A stretch of 64,000 bases of DNA, from the NCBI GenBank assembly GCA_947499615.1, contig CANMOP010000003.1, positions 32,901-96,900 of the forward strand, read 5' to 3'. Made by a program: the position numbers and the translations under genes. This DNA comes from Chloroflexota bacterium (GTDB lineage Bacteria > Chloroflexota > Dehalococcoidia > UBA2979). Below, one piece after another: positions 15,223 to 44,642 of this stretch; the stretch's first letter is position 1, and each line of letters begins with the position of its first letter. The notes under the pieces are model-generated. The model was not told the origin of the DNA. It made no database searches and saw nothing but the letters and a program-made list of their open reading frames with translations.

Positions 15223-15260
15223 CACAAGCCCTCCCCGATATCGGGGAGGGCTTGTTCGTT
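15223..15260 (+). terminator. perfect palindromic hairpin (AAGCCCTCCCCGAT|ATCGGGGAGGGCTT) plus TTGTTCGTTG; probably bidirectional, also downstream of rnpB on the minus strand
   Basis: 16-bp perfect inverted repeat read directly, 29 nt after the PNPOx stop. Confidence 0.6.
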
Positions 15261-15329
15261 GTCGCGCAATTGTGACCTCGCCGCTGCGCACGGGCGTGCG
15301 AACGCACGTCGAGGTTGGTGAGCAAAGTT

Positions 15330-15756
<427 letters not shown>

Positions 15757-15824: not shown

Positions 15825-17084
15825 CTACGGTGCGCGGTAGTCGCGGACTGCCCGTGCTCGCTGCCACACGCCGGCGACGAACAACAGCGAGGCGGTGCCA
15901 CCGACGACCATCGTGCCGGAGGCGCCAATCAGCGCGGACAGCATGCCGACCCAGAGCGTGCCGACGTTGTTCGCGGTCTGCGCGGAGAACAGCATCACGC
16001 TCAGCGCGCGGCCTCGCATCGCATCGGGTGTGGAGAGTTGCACGGTCGCCTGGCGCACGGTGACGCTCATCGCATCCATCGCACCCAGGCCCGCGATGCA
16101 GATCAGCCCGACCCACAGATACGGCACCAGCGCGAACGGGAACAGCAGCAGCGCGTACACAAAGTGTGCGATCAGCACGATCAGCCCGGTGCGCTTGAAC
16201 CGCCGCAATCCCAGCACCGCGAAACTGCCACCAATCGCGCCGGCTGAGTTCGCCGCGGTCAGCAGCCCCACGACACCAGCGCCGCCGCCGAACAACTGGT
16301 GAGCCAGCACCGGGTACATCTGGCGGTAGAACGAGACGACAGTGACGCCGGTGTCCATGAAGTAGAGCGCCGGAAGCAACGGATGCGTCCGCACGTACCT
16401 CAGTCCCTCCCAGGTGCGCTGCAGCACTGACCCGGTCTCGCCCTCAGTGACTGGCGCCGAGGCGTCCACGCGCATCATCAGCGGGAGCACGACGCTGGGC
16501 ACCGCAAACACCGCCGCGAGCACGAAGACCGGAACGAGGCCCATCGACCCCGCGATCGCCGCGAAGCCGAGCGGGGCTGCGACGATCGCGACCTGCTGCG
16601 TGATCCAGTTGGTGGTGACCGCATCGACCATATGCTCGGCGGGCACCGTCGCGCCGATGAGCGCGCTGCGAGCGGGTGCGCCGAAGACACTGGTCACGGA
16701 GAGCGCCGCAGTGACCACATACACGTGCCACGGCAGCAGCGCGTCGGCTGCCACAAGTCCCGCCATCAGCGCCATGAAGGCCAGCGTGACCGCTTGCGTC
16801 CACGCCGTCATGAGCCGTCGATCGAGTCGGTCTGCGAGCGTCCCGCCGAACAGCACAGCGGGGATCTGCACCACGAGCTGGATCAGGCCGAGCAGGCCCA
16901 ACTGTGCTGCCGAACCGGTGATGTCGTACAGCCAGACGCCGGTCACCACCAGCCGCAGCTCCTGCGTCAGAACGGCCGCGATGGTGGCCAGCCAGAGCAG
17001 CCGGTACTGCGGGAACGCCAGCGCAGACCAGGAGCCGTGCCTCGGTGGCGGGGTGGGATCAGACGGCGGAGGCGAGTTCGTCAT
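15825..17084 (-). CDS. MFS transporter (EntS/enterobactin-exporter-like family)
   Basis: 419 aa, about 12 predicted TM helices, MFS signature region (GTLADRLDRR). Confidence 0.8.
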   Translation of the reverse strand: MTNSPPPSDPTPPPRHGSWSALAFPQYRLLWLATIAAVLTQELRLVVTGVWLYDITGSAAQLGLLGLIQLVVQIPAVLFGGTLADRLDRRLMTAWTQAVTLAFMALMAGLVAADALLPWHVYVVTAALSVTSVFGAPARSALIGATVPAEHMVDAVTTNWITQQVAIVAAPLGFAAIAGSMGLVPVFVLAAVFAVPSVVLPLMMRVDASAPVTEGETGSVLQRTWEGLRYVRTHPLLPALYFMDTGVTVVSFYRQMYPVLAHQLFGGGAGVVGLLTAANSAGAIGGSFAVLGLRRFKRTGLIVLIAHFVYALLLFPFALVPYLWVGLICIAGLGAMDAMSVTVRQATVQLSTPDAMRGRALSVMLFSAQTANNVGTLWVGMLSALIGASGTMVVGGTASLLFVAGVWQRARAVRDYRAP

Positions 17085-17127: not shown

Positions 17128-18495
17128 TCAGCGCGCGAATTGCACCTCGATAGCGTCGTCCGTCACGACGATGGCCGCGACAACGTCACGCAGCAGGCGA
17201 CGCGCCTCGTCCGGGGCCAGCGTGTCCCATGCCTCCACGAGTCGCGCGCGCGTTCGGGCCAGCGCCTCGCGGCCGCGCTCGCTCTCCGCATCGTCGCCGC
17301 GACGGCGCAGCAGCAGGTCCGCCTCTTCCTCGGCCTGCAGATCCTCGACGGCCAGCTGGGACGCCTCCTGACGCAGCCTGTCCGCCGACCACTCACCAGA
17401 GGCGCGCCGCTCCAACAGCGCCTCCAGGCGTCGACGCAGCCCATCGCGCCGCGTCTCGATGCGATCGAGGTGCTCGGTCAGTCGGTGGTCGGCGCCGAGT
17501 CGATCCAACTCGCCATCGGCAACGACGGCAAGGCGCTCCCGTACCGCTGCTTCCAGCGCGTCCGCGTGCCGCGTGGGGTACTCGCATCCGCCCTGGTTCG
17601 CACGCGTCTCGCATTGGTAGTAGCGATGATCCTTCGGCGGCGCACCGGGCGTCCTCGATTGGCGAGTGCGGCGCGCGCCTATGAGGTGGCTGCCGCAGTA
17701 CCCGCACGTCGCGAGGCCAGCGAGCAAATACTGGCTCCGCTCCTGGCGAGTGAAACTCGTGCGCCGAGACGTCAACCTCGCCTGGGCCGCGTGGAACCGC
17801 TCCGCCGAAATCAGCGCCGCATGCTCAGACGGCACAACGATCCCGAGGCGGCGATAGGTGCCGGTATATACGGGGTTTCGCAGCACTGCGCGTACGCTGA
17901 CCATGCTCCACAGGCCACCCCGCCGCGTCCGCGATCCCGCGGCGTTCAGCGCGCCCGCAATCACGCGAACGCCCTCGTCGGCCTCCACGCATCGGCGGAA
18001 GATCTCGCGCACCACCACGGCCTCGTCATCGTGGATGCGCAGATGGCGGTCGGCGACTCGATAGCCGTACGGCGCGCGCCCCAACACCTCGCCGTGCAGC
18101 GCGCGCTCGCGCATCCCGGCACGCACCTGCTCGCGGCGGCGCTGCGCAACGGAGCGCTCGTCCCACGCGGCCAGCAGTGCCTCGTCGGGCGTCGTCCCGT
18201 CCGCGAGGCGCAGCGGGAGACCCAGCGCCTCCAGCTGTAAGTAGCGTCGTGCCTGCTCGCGCACGCTCGCCCCCAGCACGGTCAGGCTTGCCAGCACGAC
18301 GACGAGAAAGCCGCGACGCTCCGTGAGCAGCACGCGAACCATACGTCGAAACTCCGGAGCGTCCGGGAGCGCGACCGTCTCAGTGAAAGTGGGGCCCACC
18401 TCCAGTCCGGAGGCAGCGCAATAGTCGAGGAAGGCGCGTTGCTGCACCTCGAAGGAGTAGCCCGACACGAAGCGCACGTAGGAGACCGCGCGCAT
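17128..18495 (-). CDS. large-serine-recombinase-like protein with degenerate catalytic motifs
   Basis: Resolvase-type N-terminus (YVRFVSG), recombinase domain (RAPYGYR...RNPVYTG), Zn-ribbon (CGYCG...YYQC), C-terminal coiled coil; the DRLxR catalytic region reads ASLTVLGASVRE. Confidence 0.7.
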   Translation of the reverse strand: MRAVSYVRFVSGYSFEVQQRAFLDYCAASGLEVGPTFTETVALPDAPEFRRMVRVLLTERRGFLVVVLASLTVLGASVREQARRYLQLEALGLPLRLADGTTPDEALLAAWDERSVAQRRREQVRAGMRERALHGEVLGRAPYGYRVADRHLRIHDDEAVVVREIFRRCVEADEGVRVIAGALNAAGSRTRRGGLWSMVSVRAVLRNPVYTGTYRRLGIVVPSEHAALISAERFHAAQARLTSRRTSFTRQERSQYLLAGLATCGYCGSHLIGARRTRQSRTPGAPPKDHRYYQCETRANQGGCEYPTRHADALEAAVRERLAVVADGELDRLGADHRLTEHLDRIETRRDGLRRRLEALLERRASGEWSADRLRQEASQLAVEDLQAEEEADLLLRRRGDDAESERGREALARTRARLVEAWDTLAPDEARRLLRDVVAAIVVTDDAIEVQFAR

Positions 18496-18539
18496 GCGGT
18501 GACGCTCCTCCCCTACCTCGCAAGTAGTATACCGGCGTC

Positions 18540-19133
18540 ATGGCCCCGTCCGGTGTACGATCGGTGCACTCAAGCGTTTCGGAGACCGCCGTGCAATTCA
18601 ACGTCGCGTTGCTGCTACAAGAGCCCGTGGGGAGCATCCGCGCAGAGGATCTCCTCGACGAGCCGGTTGCGGTCCCGGCAGAGGATTATGTCGCCTCGGC
18701 AACGGGGCGAGTGAACCTGCTGCGCACGCAGCACGGCATCTTGGTGCGCTCCAACATGCTGGTACACCCCAGCCTACAGTGCGGGCGCTGCCTGACCGAC
18801 TTCGAGTTGACGCTCCCGTTGCGCATCGATGAGGAGTTCATCCCCCTGCGCGACTTCGTGACGGGTGACCCGGTAGAGGCGGATTTGGATCAATTTCGCA
18901 TCGACGAGCGTAACGAACTCGACCTCAGCGAGGCGATCCGGCAATATGAACAGGCGGCATTGCCCATCCAACCGATCTGTCGCGAGGATTGCGCCGGTCT
19001 TTGCCCGGTATGCGGGCAGAATCTGAACGAGCGCGTCTGCGATTGCACACCGCCAAAGGCGGAGGGCGCCTGGGCCAGCCTTGCGGGGTTGGCCGAACGG
19101 CTCCAAACGGAGGAATCACATGGCAGTCCCTAA
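18540..19133 (+). CDS. yceD: YceD/DUF177 family protein (large ribosomal RNA accumulation protein)
   Basis: DUF177 C-terminal Cys cluster (CREDCAGLCPVCGQNLNERVCDC) and position directly upstream of rpmF; start uncertain. Confidence 0.75.
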   Translation: MAPSGVRSVHSSVSETAVQFNVALLLQEPVGSIRAEDLLDEPVAVPAEDYVASATGRVNLLRTQHGILVRSNMLVHPSLQCGRCLTDFELTLPLRIDEEFIPLRDFVTGDPVEADLDQFRIDERNELDLSEAIRQYEQAALPIQPICREDCAGLCPVCGQNLNERVCDCTPPKAEGAWASLAGLAERLQTEESHGSP

Positions 19134-21207: not shown

Positions 21208-21654
21208 ATGCCCGGAGGCTCCCGCCGCAGATCACGCATCGCCGCGCTGCAAACGCTCTTCGAGGCGGAGAGCGCCGATCGCGACGTGCTTACGACGCTC
21301 GACCGACACATCGAGGATGCACGCCTGCCGGAGGATGCGGCCGAGTTCGCGCAGCACCTCGTGGAGGGCGTCCAGAAATATCGTCAGGCGATCGACGCCG
21401 TCATCCGCGAGCGCGCGCCCGCATTTCCACTGGAGGAGATGGCGCCCGTCGATCGGAACGTGCTCCGCCTTGCAATCTACGAAGTGCTCTTCGATAATCA
21501 GCCCGCTCCGCTCCGGACCGCAATCAATGAGGCCGTGGAGTTGGCGAAGGGGTACGGTTCGGAATCGTCGGGCCGCTTCGTGAACGGTGTGCTGGGCGCG
21601 GTTGCGCTGGCCGCTGTAGACGACGAGCCGCCCAGCGCGGACACTTCTGACTGA
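21208..21654 (+). CDS. nusB: transcription antitermination factor NusB
   Basis: 148 aa, NusB pattern (RIAALQTLFEAE..., DRNVLRLAIYEVLF, INEAVELAKGYG...FVNGVLG). Confidence 0.8.
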   Translation: MPGGSRRRSRIAALQTLFEAESADRDVLTTLDRHIEDARLPEDAAEFAQHLVEGVQKYRQAIDAVIRERAPAFPLEEMAPVDRNVLRLAIYEVLFDNQPAPLRTAINEAVELAKGYGSESSGRFVNGVLGAVALAAVDDEPPSADTSD

Positions 21655-40025: not shown

Positions 40026-40100
40026 GCGGAAGTAGCTCAGTGGTAGAGCGCCTCCTTGCCAAGGAGGAGGTCGCGAGTTCGACCCTCGTCTTCCGCTCCA
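40026..40100 (+). tRNA. tRNA-Gly (anticodon GCC)
   Basis: GCGGAAGTAGCTCAGTGGTAGAGCGCCTCCTTGCCAAGGAGGAGGTCGCGAGTTCGACCCTCGTCTTCCGCTCCA folds as a cloverleaf with anticodon loop TTGCCAA; CCA encoded. Confidence 0.95.
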
Positions 40101-40131: not shown

Positions 40132-40219
40132 GCCGAAGTGGCGGAATGGCAGACGCGGCGGTCTCAAAAACCGTTGAGGGGAAACCCTCGTGCGGGTTCG
40201 ACCCCCGCCTTCGGCACCA
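40132..40219 (+). tRNA. tRNA-Leu (anticodon CAA), class II with long variable arm
   Basis: GCCGAAGTGGCGGAATGGCAGACGC...GGTCTCAAAAACC... anticodon loop CTCAAAA; long variable arm; T-arm GCGGGTTCGACCCCCGC; CCA encoded. Confidence 0.9.
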
Positions 40220-44565: not shown

Positions 44566-44642
44566 TGGTAGCGCGTGCGGGATTCGAACCCGCGATCTCC
44601 GCCTTGAGAGGGCGATGTCCTGGGCCACTAGACGAACGCGCC
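44566..44642 (-). tRNA. tRNA-Glu (anticodon CUC)
   Basis: Minus strand GGCGCGTTCGTCTAGTGGCCCAGGACATCGCCCTCTCAAGGCGGAGATCGCGGGTTCGAATCCCGCACGCGCTACCA; architecture matches E. coli tRNA-Glu; anticodon loop CTCTCAA. Confidence 0.9.

What the first reader, a model, noticed from the sequence alone, without database searches (positions are those of the whole stretch)
17128..18495. Large serine recombinase homologue with a degenerate catalytic triad: likely inactive recombinase
The domain architecture is that of phage/ICE large serine integrases: resolvase N-domain, recombinase domain, Zn-ribbon (CGYCG...YYQC) and C-terminal coiled coil. The segment that normally reads (V/L)-x-K-L-D-R-L-x-R-S, supplying D67, R68 and R71, instead reads VVVLASLTVLGASVRE. 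That corresponds to D to T, R to V and R to A substitutions. The gene is isolated, with no flanking phage or ICE genes, and sits between an MFS transporter and the divergent yceD-rpmF-fab cluster. This pattern fits an inactivated recombinase retained for a DNA-binding or regulatory role, or an eroded integrated-element remnant.
Basis: partly seen in the sequence, partly recalled or inferred. Interest (0 to 1): 0.5.

Follow-up and report, generated by a model that had tools for sequence, protein, structure and literature searches.

The report
Domesticated dead serine recombinase of Chloroflexota
This gene encodes a full-length relative of phage integrases that has lost its DNA-cutting residues, yet it is conserved at the same chromosomal spot next to the RNase P RNA gene across the phylum Chloroflexota, so it looks like a mobile-element enzyme recruited for a still-unknown non-cutting job.

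Summary
Window 17128-18495 (-) is an intact 455-aa ORF with large-serine-recombinase (LSR) architecture: resolvase-fold N-domain, recombinase domain, Cys4 zinc ribbon and coiled coil. Profile alignment to gamma-delta resolvase confirms D67->T72, R68->V73 and R71->A76.

This is a family trait, not a private lesion. In about 310 relatives in three deep subgroups, all Chloroflexota where named, Y6/R8/G70 are kept. R68 and R71 are essentially absent and S10 is not conserved.

The gene is under strong purifying selection (dN/dS 0.06-0.18, N-domain included). It has no att-like repeats or mobile-element neighbours and no close relatives on viral contigs.

Its position is conserved: divergent from yceD-rpmF-fabD-fabG-nusB-acpP and upstream of rnpB. 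In two subgroups it sits in a tight array: CT398/COG1579-like zinc-ribbon gene -> dead LSR -> RNase H (type 1 or type 2/3) -> rnpB. The window's subgroup lacks the CT398-like and RNase H neighbours and has an MFS gene before rnpB.

"Eroded remnant" is rejected. [quoted passage not shown] is supported. Its target and partners are inferred only. I found no prior description.

The parts
17128..18495 (-). Complete ORF of the catalytically degenerate large-serine-recombinase homologue ('dLSR'), 455 aa plus stop
18190..18495 (-). N-terminal resolvase-fold domain (aa 1-102). Y6 and R8 are kept; the nucleophile position is V10 (codon 18466-18468).
   Evidence: Profile alignment to gamma-delta resolvase; residue counts; AF2 pLDDT >90 here; Foldseek N-domain matches
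18268..18282 (-). Codons for T72-V73-L74-G75-A76, equivalent to D67-R68-L69-G70-R71 of gamma-delta resolvase. Both catalytic arginines and the aspartate are replaced.
18088..18189 (-). alphaE-like long helix (aa 103-136). This is the dimerisation/oligomerisation helix of serine recombinases.
   Evidence: AF2 helices 103-112 and 116-133; conservation
17746..18087 (-). Linker G-R-x-P-Y-G-Y plus recombinase domain (aa 137-250). This is the best-conserved part of the family.
   Evidence: PF07508; invariant G139 R140 P142 G144 Y145; conservation 0.91 and 0.70
17524..17745 (-). Zinc-ribbon domain core (aa 251-324) with invariant C264, C267, C295 and C304
   Evidence: PF13408; invariant columns
17221..17523 (-). 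Coiled-coil insertion (aa 325-425). Long helices; sequence is variable.
   Evidence: AF2 helices 335-365, 371-400, 402-421; conservation 0.45
17131..17220 (-). C-terminal return into the zinc-ribbon domain (aa 426-455), with the conserved motif W-D-x-L...V-V-V-T-D-D
18496..18590 (.). 95-bp divergent intergenic region. It holds an SD GGAGGAG (complement of 18505-18511) and a -10-like TATACT for dLSR (complement of 18526-18531). It also holds the conserved GGTGTACGATC (18552-18562), containing a -10-like TACGAT for yceD. The likely yceD start is GTG 18591.
   Evidence: Sequence; conservation of TATACT and GATCGTACACC in subgroup-A loci. The promoter role is inferred; the consensus scan found nothing.
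15825..17084 (-). MFS transporter gene, 43 nt downstream of dLSR on the same strand. It is a lineage-specific insertion between dLSR and rnpB.
   Evidence: PF05977/PF07690. Absent from this slot in L007, L012, L015 and L076, where rnpB directly follows dLSR.
15327..15751 (-). rnpB (RNase P RNA, class A), the conserved downstream neighbour of the family. It has its own -10-like TACAGT about 7 nt upstream.
   Evidence: Rfam 288 bits; same-strand rnpB downstream in about 58/80 loci and in L161/L162; promoter boxes

Best explanation
The gene encodes a domesticated, catalytically dead large serine recombinase. It descends from an integrase that was fixed early in Chloroflexota beside rnpB. It has since been kept by selection as a non-cutting nucleic-acid-binding protein.

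Shown: (1) full LSR architecture and fold; (2) loss of the Ser nucleophile and of R68/R71 in this protein and across the family; (3) strong purifying selection on every domain; (4) vertical, syntenic inheritance with no mobile-element hallmarks.

Inferred mechanism: the protein dimerises through the retained N-domain and alphaE helix. It binds a specific DNA site through the highly conserved GRxPYGY linker, recombinase domain and zinc ribbon, as LSRs bind att half-sites, but it cannot form the phosphoserine link. It therefore acts as a site-specific binder: a regulator, or a bridging factor through the coiled coil.

In most lineages it is made from a tight gene array together with a CT398/COG1579-type coiled-coil zinc-ribbon protein and an RNase H, next to rnpB. 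I infer that it works in, or targets, that nucleic-acid-processing module. In the window's subgroup it stands alone: dLSR, then MFS, then rnpB.
For: Architecture: Pfam RD and ZD. Profile-to-PDB alignments to gamma-delta resolvase, E=2e-6, and to SPbeta integrase, E=2.5e-26. AF2 pLDDT 86.8. Foldseek top hits are all LSRs.

Dead site, subgroups A+B (196 sequences): Y6 185, R8 187, G70 188, but S10 47, D67 24, R68 2, R71 7. Subgroup C (117 sequences): S10 10, R68->H 108, no Arg among the seven commonest residues at R71.

Selection: dN/dS is 0.06-0.18 in 14 independent pairs. The N-domain alone gives 0.05-0.23.

DNA-binding parts are the best conserved: linker 0.91, RD 0.70, ZD 0.66, against NTD 0.56 and CC 0.45.

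Synteny:
- Divergent yceD-rpmF-fabD-fabG-nusB-acpP in about 70/80 loci, down to 38% identity.
- rnpB downstream on the same strand in about 58/80 loci, and in subgroup-C loci whose other flanks differ.
- A CT398_CC+Zn_ribbon_9 gene immediately upstream in 66 loci.
- RNase HI (41 loci) or RNase HII/III-type (15 loci) in the same downstream slot.

Not mobile: no att-like repeats and native GC. Relatives on viral contigs are <=32% identical. All 18 inspected carry a canonical active-site signature: the YxRxS serine motif in 16, the other two lacking the N-terminus, and a [D/S]R..R motif where the pattern scan could see it.
Against: - No DNA target was found. The conserved elements in the divergent intergenic region and upstream of rnpB look like ordinary -10/-35 promoter boxes, not dyad-symmetric operators.
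- Inactivity is inferred from homology, not measured. Y6, R8, Q19, R45 and E124 remain conserved in subgroups A and B, so the former active-site pocket may still bind something.
- About a quarter of subgroup-A/B members do have Ser at position 10.
- The partnership with the CT398-like protein and RNase H rests on gene order only, and it is absent from the window's own subgroup.
- Binding to RNA, rather than DNA, is not excluded.
Confidence: 0.6

Rival explanations
1. Eroded remnant or pseudogene of an integrated phage or ICE, on its way to loss.
For: The catalytic residues are lost. The gene has no element around it. Integrase genes often survive as the last piece of a decayed element.
Against: The ORF is intact and full length at about 440-475 aa in hundreds of relatives. 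dN/dS is about 0.1 in all domains. The same chromosomal position is kept across deeply diverged Chloroflexota. The Cys4 zinc site and the linker are invariant.
Confidence: 0.03
2. Still an active recombinase with a non-canonical active site (for example a different nucleophile or relocated arginines), performing a conserved chromosomal rearrangement or resolution reaction.
For: Y6, R8, G70 and E124 are conserved, and the N-domain is under purifying selection. An Arg is common one helical turn after position 71 (R79; consensus xxxRxQARRY). Subgroup C has His at position 68 in 108/117 sequences.
Against: No Ser, Thr or Cys is conserved at or next to position 10 (L, S, P, T, I, A and V all occur). 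R68 and R71 are absent family-wide. From general knowledge of resolvase and Sin mutagenesis, each single loss reduces catalysis by orders of magnitude. No repeated sites flank the gene or lie in the locus.
Confidence: 0.05
3. An RNA- or RNA:DNA-hybrid-directed factor. The protein would work on RNA (RNase P RNA or its precursor) or on R-loops or primers, together with the CT398/COG1579 protein and RNase H, rather than on duplex DNA sites.
For: The persistent array is CT398-like -> dLSR -> RNase H -> rnpB. Two unrelated RNase H families occupy the same slot. COG1579/FlgZ homologues elsewhere sit next to rnhA, dnaG and rpoD, and next to rnpB in Borrelia burgdorferi (PMC3372290; PMC8469502).
Against: rnpB has its own -10 box immediately upstream and need not be co-expressed. 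The parts that bind duplex DNA in LSRs (linker, RD, ZD) are the most conserved. The window's subgroup keeps the protein without adjacent CT398-like or RNase H genes. No LSR domain is known to bind RNA (general knowledge).
Confidence: 0.17
4. An att-site guardian or decoy. A dead integrase would occupy a former attB near rnpB, or titrate partners of incoming serine-integrase elements, and so protect a housekeeping locus from integration.
For: The adjacency to a conserved small-RNA gene is typical of integrase target choice. Dehalococcoides islands integrate at the tmRNA gene ssrA, and that paper discusses serine recombinases (PMC3146451, listed; the serine-recombinase mechanism is partly from my own knowledge). 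In subgroup A the dLSR-rnpB interval varies from 0 to about 6 kb of cargo.
Against: The inserted genes in L004 are ordinary methyltransferase, PadR and ABC-transporter genes with no integrase. There is no PADLOC match. No att-like sequence was identified.
Confidence: 0.05

Closest known systems
Large serine recombinases / serine integrases (SPbeta SprA, A118 Int, Bxb1 Int, PhiC31 Int; Pfam PF00239+PF07508+PF13408)
   Same: Same domain order and fold: resolvase-type N-domain, alphaE helix, GRxPYGY linker, recombinase domain, and Cys4 zinc ribbon with an inserted coiled coil.
   Different: It lacks the Ser nucleophile and the R68/R71 equivalents. It is not on a mobile element and has no att repeats. 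It is vertically inherited in a housekeeping neighbourhood. Identity to solved LSRs is only about 18%.
ssrA-specific serine integrases of Dehalococcoides genomic islands (PMC3146451)
   Same: They are LSR-type genes in the same phylum, placed next to a conserved small-RNA gene.
   Different: By my reading of that work they are element-borne and associated with mobile islands at ssrA. The present family is fixed, dead and next to rnpB. No direct sequence comparison was made here.
XisF / CcrA / CcrB / CcrC (NCBIfam equivalogs)
   Same: They are the best NCBIfam matches, all over the RD-ZD region.
   Different: Scores are 50-63 bits against cut-offs of 375-900 bits. The protein is not a member of any of them.
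Small serine recombinases that double as repressors at their own res/promoter sites (e.g. Tn3 and gamma-delta resolvase; general knowledge)
   Same: They show a precedent for a serine recombinase acting through site-specific DNA binding alone. The N-domain is homologous.
   Different: Those enzymes remain catalytically active and use a C-terminal HTH. This protein has the LSR RD+ZD DNA-binding module and no active site.
Exapted, catalytically inactive mobile-element enzymes used as DNA binders (e.g. nuclease-dead TnpB-derived regulators, CENP-B from pogo transposase; general knowledge; review PMC8987985)
   Same: The same evolutionary logic applies: loss of catalysis, retention of nucleic-acid recognition, purifying selection and vertical inheritance.
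   Different: The enzyme superfamily is different. In the review PMC8987985, the passages retrieved for 'serine recombinase' concerned only active serine invertases and resolvases, and the terms 'inactivated' and 'catalytically inactive' did not occur.

Membership tests
Large serine recombinase (LSR / serine integrase) | N-terminal resolvase-fold catalytic domain | tested here: met
   The fold and remote homology are present: family profile vs 1gdt E=2e-6 over 1-142, and Foldseek N-domain matches. The window protein itself misses PF00239 at E<=1. Subgroup-B member L028 hits it at 55.5 bits.
Large serine recombinase (LSR / serine integrase) | Catalytic serine nucleophile (S10 of gamma-delta resolvase) in the Y-x-R-x-S motif | tested here: not met
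   The window has V10. Ser occurs in only 47/196 (subgroups A+B) and 10/117 (subgroup C).
Large serine recombinase (LSR / serine integrase) | Active-site arginines R8, R68, R71 (and D67) | tested here: not met
   R8 is kept (187/196). R68->V73, R71->A76 and D67->T72 in the window. Across the family R68 is 2/196 and R71 is 7/196. In subgroup C, R68->H in 108/117.
Large serine recombinase (LSR / serine integrase) | Recombinase domain (PF07508) after a GRxPYGY-type linker | tested here: met
   PF07508 at 2.7e-16. G139, R140, P142, G144 and Y145 are invariant.
Large serine recombinase (LSR / serine integrase) | Zinc-ribbon domain (PF13408) with four Cys and an inserted coiled coil | tested here: met
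   PF13408 at 8.3e-13. C264, C267, C295 and C304 are invariant. Helices 335-421 are in the AF2 model.
Large serine recombinase (LSR / serine integrase) | Carried by a phage, ICE or transposon and flanked by att sites | tested here: not met
   Neighbours are housekeeping genes. No flanking repeats. No close relatives in IMG/VR. Synteny is conserved in about 70/80 genomes.
Large serine recombinase (LSR / serine integrase) | Site-specific recombination activity | not testable with these tools
   This needs an in vitro or in vivo recombination or cleavage assay.
Small serine recombinases (resolvase/invertase) | Catalytic domain followed directly by a C-terminal helix-turn-helix, about 180-200 aa in all | tested here: not met
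   The protein is 455 aa with RD+ZD+CC instead of an HTH.
XisF / CcrA / CcrB / CcrC equivalogs (NCBIfam) | Score at or above the curated cut-off | tested here: not met
   62.8, 57.8, 55.9 and 50.1 bits against cut-offs of 375, 700, 900 and 900.
Domesticated (exapted) pseudo-enzyme derived from a mobile-element gene | Catalytic residues lost family-wide, while the gene stays intact under purifying selection | tested here: met
Domesticated (exapted) pseudo-enzyme derived from a mobile-element gene | Vertical inheritance at a fixed chromosomal locus across a large clade | tested here: met
   No formal phylogenetic congruence test was made.
Domesticated (exapted) pseudo-enzyme derived from a mobile-element gene | Demonstrated host function | not testable with these tools
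   No genetics, binding data or expression data are available here.
Anti-phage defence system component (PADLOC) | Match to a PADLOC model | tested here: not met
   No hits for the window protein or the subgroup-B orthologue.

The most novel reading that the evidence does not exclude
The dead recombinase is the Chloroflexota-specific, site-recognising subunit of a conserved but uncharacterised housekeeping module: COG1579/CT398-like coiled-coil zinc-ribbon protein + RNase H, physically tied to the RNase P RNA gene. An integrase's att-site recognition apparatus would have been recruited to direct RNase H/COG1579 activity to a particular chromosomal or RNA:DNA-hybrid target, or to control rnpB. 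This would be the first described exaptation of a large serine integrase into a non-catalytic core cellular factor. It would also give a first functional handle on the widespread COG1579-rnhA-rnpB neighbourhood.
Probability: 0.25. Interest if true: 0.8.

Novelty: new variant of a known kind. Interest (0 to 1): 0.62.

Why it matters
Large serine integrases are studied as mobile-element enzymes and as genome-engineering tools. I found no report of one that has lost catalysis and been fixed as a vertically inherited cellular gene (literature).

This family would be a natural "binding-only" LSR. It could help separate DNA recognition, synapsis and coiled-coil control from chemistry. It also shows how integrases can be exapted.

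Databases currently name these proteins "recombinase family protein" or "site-specific DNA recombinase". That naming inflates counts of mobile elements and of usable integrases in Chloroflexota genomes and metagenomes.

The conserved array with a COG1579/CT398-like protein, RNase H and rnpB also offers a testable lead on COG1579. That protein is widespread and reported as essential in some organisms, but its function is not understood (PMC8469502).

Tried and rejected
- att-like repeats around 14.7-19.7 kb: only short, chance-level matches in GC-rich DNA.
- Consensus promoter/terminator scan of 16.9-18.8 kb: nothing found.
- Operator search by comparing upstream regions. Subgroup A shares TATACT and GATCGTACACC. 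Subgroup B shares TTGcaa-N17-cTATAATc upstream of the CT398-like gene. rnpB has a -10 box 6-8 nt upstream of its 5' end. All look like promoter boxes. No conserved dyad that could be a recombinase-type site was seen.
- Is rnpB simply the 3' end of the dLSR transcript? It has its own -10 box, so co-transcription is not required.
- Is the variable dLSR-rnpB interval in subgroup A an integration hotspot holding mobile elements? In L004 it holds methyltransferase, PadR and ABC-transporter genes, with no integrase.
- NCBIfam and PADLOC: no specific family.
- Viral contigs: only canonical active LSRs at <=32% identity.
- Literature: seven searches and four papers read in part. None describes a catalytically dead LSR family or an LSR-rnpB link.
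Full report
**1. What is in the sequence**

Window 17128..18495 (-) is an uninterrupted 455-aa ORF with an ATG start. A GGAGGAG Shine-Dalgarno lies 9 nt upstream.

Pfam finds the Recombinase domain (PF07508, aa 157-244, 2.7e-16) and the recombinase zinc ribbon (PF13408, aa 257-322, 8.3e-13). It finds no Resolvase domain for this sequence, even at E<=1. NCBIfam gives only sub-threshold matches to XisF and CcrA/B/C. A direct PDB sequence search reaches SPbeta and A118 integrases only over aa ~119-324.

An AlphaFold2 model built on a 48-sequence family alignment is confident (mean pLDDT 86.8; N-domain blocks >90). By Foldseek it matches full-length SPbeta, Bxb1, A118 and PhiC31 integrases. Its N-domain matches the catalytic domains of TP901-1 integrase (rmsd 2.8 A), gamma-delta/Tn3 resolvase and Sin. 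Helices 335-365, 371-400 and 402-421 form the coiled-coil insertion.

**2. The active site**

A profile of the family's first ~141 residues aligns end to end with gamma-delta resolvase residues 1-142 (E=2e-6). The full-length profile aligns with SPbeta integrase residues 18-511 (E=2.5e-26).

In gamma-delta numbering the window protein keeps Y6 and R8. It has V at S10 (the nucleophile), T72 at D67, V73 at R68 and A76 at R71. The loss of the nucleophile, which matters more, had been overlooked.

I aligned 196 non-identical relatives from the protein search and from 80 genome loci to gamma-delta resolvase.

| Position | Conserved in (of 196) |
|---|---|
| Y6 | 185 |
| R8 | 187 |
| Q19 | 193 |
| R45 | 170 |
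| G70 | 188 |
| S10 | 47 (L, P, T, I, A and V also occur) |
| D67 | 24 |
| R68 | 2 |
| R71 | 7 |

A third, more distant subgroup (117 sequences) shows the same pattern: Y6 112, R8 108, G70 117, S10 10, R68->H 108, and no Arg among the seven commonest residues at R71.

The degenerate site is therefore a property of a whole protein family, not a lesion of this gene.

**3. Not a decaying remnant**

The protein search returned 283 hits. The 120 listed are 38-100% identical to the query, and nearly all are full length (~440-475 aa). Where sources name them, they are "recombinase family protein" or "site-specific DNA recombinase" from Chloroflexota or Dehalococcoidia MAGs.

Nei-Gojobori dN/dS for 14 independent pairs of orthologues is 0.06-0.18 for the whole gene. 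For the former catalytic domain alone it is 0.05-0.23.

Conservation across the family is highest in the GRxPYGY linker (0.91), the recombinase domain (0.70) and the zinc-ribbon core (0.66). These are the parts that contact DNA in LSR-DNA complexes (my knowledge of 4KIS and related structures). It is lower in the N-domain (0.56) and the coiled coil (0.45). The four zinc-binding cysteines are invariant.

No att-like repeats flank the gene. Its GC content (0.69-0.71) matches its surroundings.

In IMG/VR the best relatives are <=32% identical. All 18 inspected carry a canonical active-site signature: the YxRxS serine motif in 16 (the other two lack the N-terminus), and a [D/S]R..R motif where the pattern scan could see it.

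An exhaustive phmmer run against 1.84 billion cluster representatives gives 102 representatives at E<=1e-30. Canonical active LSRs only begin to appear at about that level.

**4. Genomic context**

In the window the gene lies between a divergent yceD-rpmF-fabD-fabG-nusB-acpP cluster and, on its own strand, an MFS transporter gene. Then come rnpB (Rfam 288 bits, 15327-15751), a PNPOx-like gene and murE.

A scan of species-representative genomes found 361 stretches encoding a relative. The best 80 are all Chloroflexota: Dehalococcoidia, 'Chloroflexia', Thermoflexus hugenholtzii and Tepidiforma.

- In about 70 of these 80 loci the gene is divergent from the same yceD...acpP cluster, down to 38% protein identity.
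- In about 58 of the 80, rnpB lies downstream on the same strand. In several it is only 25-80 nt from the stop codon.

Three subgroups emerge.

- **Subgroup A** contains the window and 16 of the 80 genome loci (L001-L010, L012, L013, L015, L025, L069, L076). Its N-terminus has the form Y-L-R-x-L-P. It has dLSR followed directly by rnpB, or by 1-6 kb of ordinary cargo such as the window's MFS gene. In L004 the cargo is methyltransferase, PadR and ABC-transporter genes.
- **Subgroup B** (~64 loci, Y-F-R-E-x) always has a CT398-like coiled-coil hairpin + C4 zinc-ribbon gene (PF24481+PF02591, i.e. COG1579/DUF164/FlgZ) ending 3-15 nt before the dLSR start. Downstream it has either an RNase HI gene (41 loci; PF00075/PF13456; a 4-nt overlap in L035) or an RNase HII/HIII-type gene (15 loci; PF01351) in the same slot. 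rnpB follows.
- **Subgroup C** (>1000 proteins at E<=1e-20) was examined at two loci on Mb-scale contigs. The CT398-like gene is again immediately upstream (40 and 8 nt). rnpB is 44 and 57 nt downstream. All other neighbours differ.

The conserved core is therefore CT398-like -> dLSR -> [RNase H] -> rnpB. The window's lineage has a reduced version.

Published work notes that flgZ/COG1579 homologues in other phyla neighbour rnhA, dnaG and rpoD, and rnpB in Borrelia burgdorferi (PMC3372290; PMC8469502). The Chloroflexota gene thus looks like an integrase inserted into, and then fixed within, an older COG1579-RNase H-rnpB neighbourhood.

**5. How it most likely works**

Shown: LSR fold; missing nucleophile and catalytic arginines; purifying selection on all domains; vertical, syntenic inheritance.

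Inferred from knowledge of serine recombinases: without S10, R68 and R71 the protein cannot make the phosphoserine intermediate. It does keep the alphaE helix and N-domain (dimerisation), the linker, RD and ZD (site-specific DNA binding), and the coiled coil (protein-protein contacts or synapsis control).

The most economical model is a site-specific, non-cutting DNA binder: a regulator or bridging factor. In most lineages it is co-produced with a COG1579 protein and an RNase H.

I could not find its site. The conserved elements upstream of dLSR (TATACT), of yceD (GGTGTACGATC), of the CT398-like gene (TTGcaa-N17-cTATAATc) and of rnpB (a -10 box 6-8 nt upstream) all look like promoter boxes. 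The target and the partnership therefore remain hypotheses.

Rivals:
- An RNA or RNA:DNA-hybrid role is suggested by the RNase H/rnpB linkage and by the non-orthologous RNase H replacement.
- Residual non-canonical catalysis is suggested by the conserved Y6/R8/G70/E124 pocket.
- An att-site guardian role.
- A decaying remnant, which is rejected.

**6. Comparison with known systems and novelty**

By fold and domain content the protein belongs to the LSR superfamily. It fails the defining catalytic features and the mobile-element association. It should therefore not be filed as a serine integrase, and it is far below the XisF and Ccr cut-offs.

Functionally, the nearest analogies are resolvases that also repress by binding res sites, and exapted catalytically dead mobile-element enzymes.

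Literature searches found no description of a catalytically inactive LSR family or of an LSR-rnpB association. In a 2022 review of MGE exaptation in prokaryotes, the passages retrieved for "serine recombinase" concern only active serine invertases and resolvases. The library searched is incomplete, so prior description cannot be excluded.

I rate it a new variant of a known kind.

**7. Verdict**

- The "inactive recombinase retained for another role" interpretation is supported.
- The "eroded remnant" alternative is rejected.
- The finding extends well beyond the window, to a Chloroflexota-wide dead-LSR family tied to rnpB and, mostly, to COG1579 and RNase H genes.
- Function is unproven.
- Interest is moderate to high (0.62).

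Noticed in passing
window 15224-15255: A perfect 32-nt palindrome (ACAAGCCCTCCCCGAT/ATCGGGGAGGGCTTGT) lies between the end of the PNPOx-like gene (+) and the 3' end of rnpB (-). It looks like a bidirectional terminator hairpin, but it has no T-run that the scan would recognise.
   Followed up: no
window 21208-21654 (and loci L002-L080): nusB sits inside the fatty-acid cluster, between fabG and acpP (yceD-rpmF-fabD-fabG-nusB-acpP). plsX and fabH are not in the cluster. This order is conserved across the Chloroflexota loci examined.
   Followed up: partly
L011-L080 (subgroup B), about 10-70 nt after the dLSR stop: Two unrelated RNase H families occupy the same slot between dLSR and rnpB in different lineages: RNase HI in 41 loci and an RNase HII/HIII-type in 15. 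This non-orthologous displacement suggests that RNase H activity is what is selected at this position.
   Followed up: partly
window 18552-18562; loci L001, L002, L004, L006-L008, L015: An 11-nt element, GGTGTACGATC (GATCGTACACC on the dLSR strand), is conserved upstream of yceD in subgroup-A genomes. Its distance from the dLSR -10-like TATACT varies. It is probably the yceD promoter -10 region, but this is unproven.
   Followed up: partly
L011, L014-L020, L028-L031, L051, L062, L075, upstream of the CT398-like gene: The -10 box is embedded in a short dyad, GCGATCGCCTATAATCGC (GCGAT...ATCGC), in one sub-clade only. It could be an operator, or simply clade-specific promoter context.
   Followed up: no
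L004 9328-13973 (also L003, L005, L006, L013): In subgroup A the interval between dLSR and rnpB is variable, from 0 to about 6 kb. It is filled with ordinary cargo (methyltransferase, PadR regulator, ABC transporter, MFS), which suggests a local insertion hotspot without recognisable mobile-element genes.
   Followed up: partly
L017 and L053, L068: These loci are rearranged. In L017 the yceD...acpP cluster lies downstream of dLSR on the same strand, and rnpB lies upstream on the opposite strand. In L053 and L068 murE is inverted. Synteny is therefore strong but not absolute.
   Followed up: no
P0006 (640 aa): One database entry for an orthologue is 640 aa, because the gene call runs upstream through the antisense strand of yceD. 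This is an annotation artefact, not a fusion.
   Followed up: no
window 40026-40097, 40132-40216, 44569-44642, 63827-63907: Four tRNA genes elsewhere in the window. They were not examined for adjacent integrases or islands.
   Followed up: no
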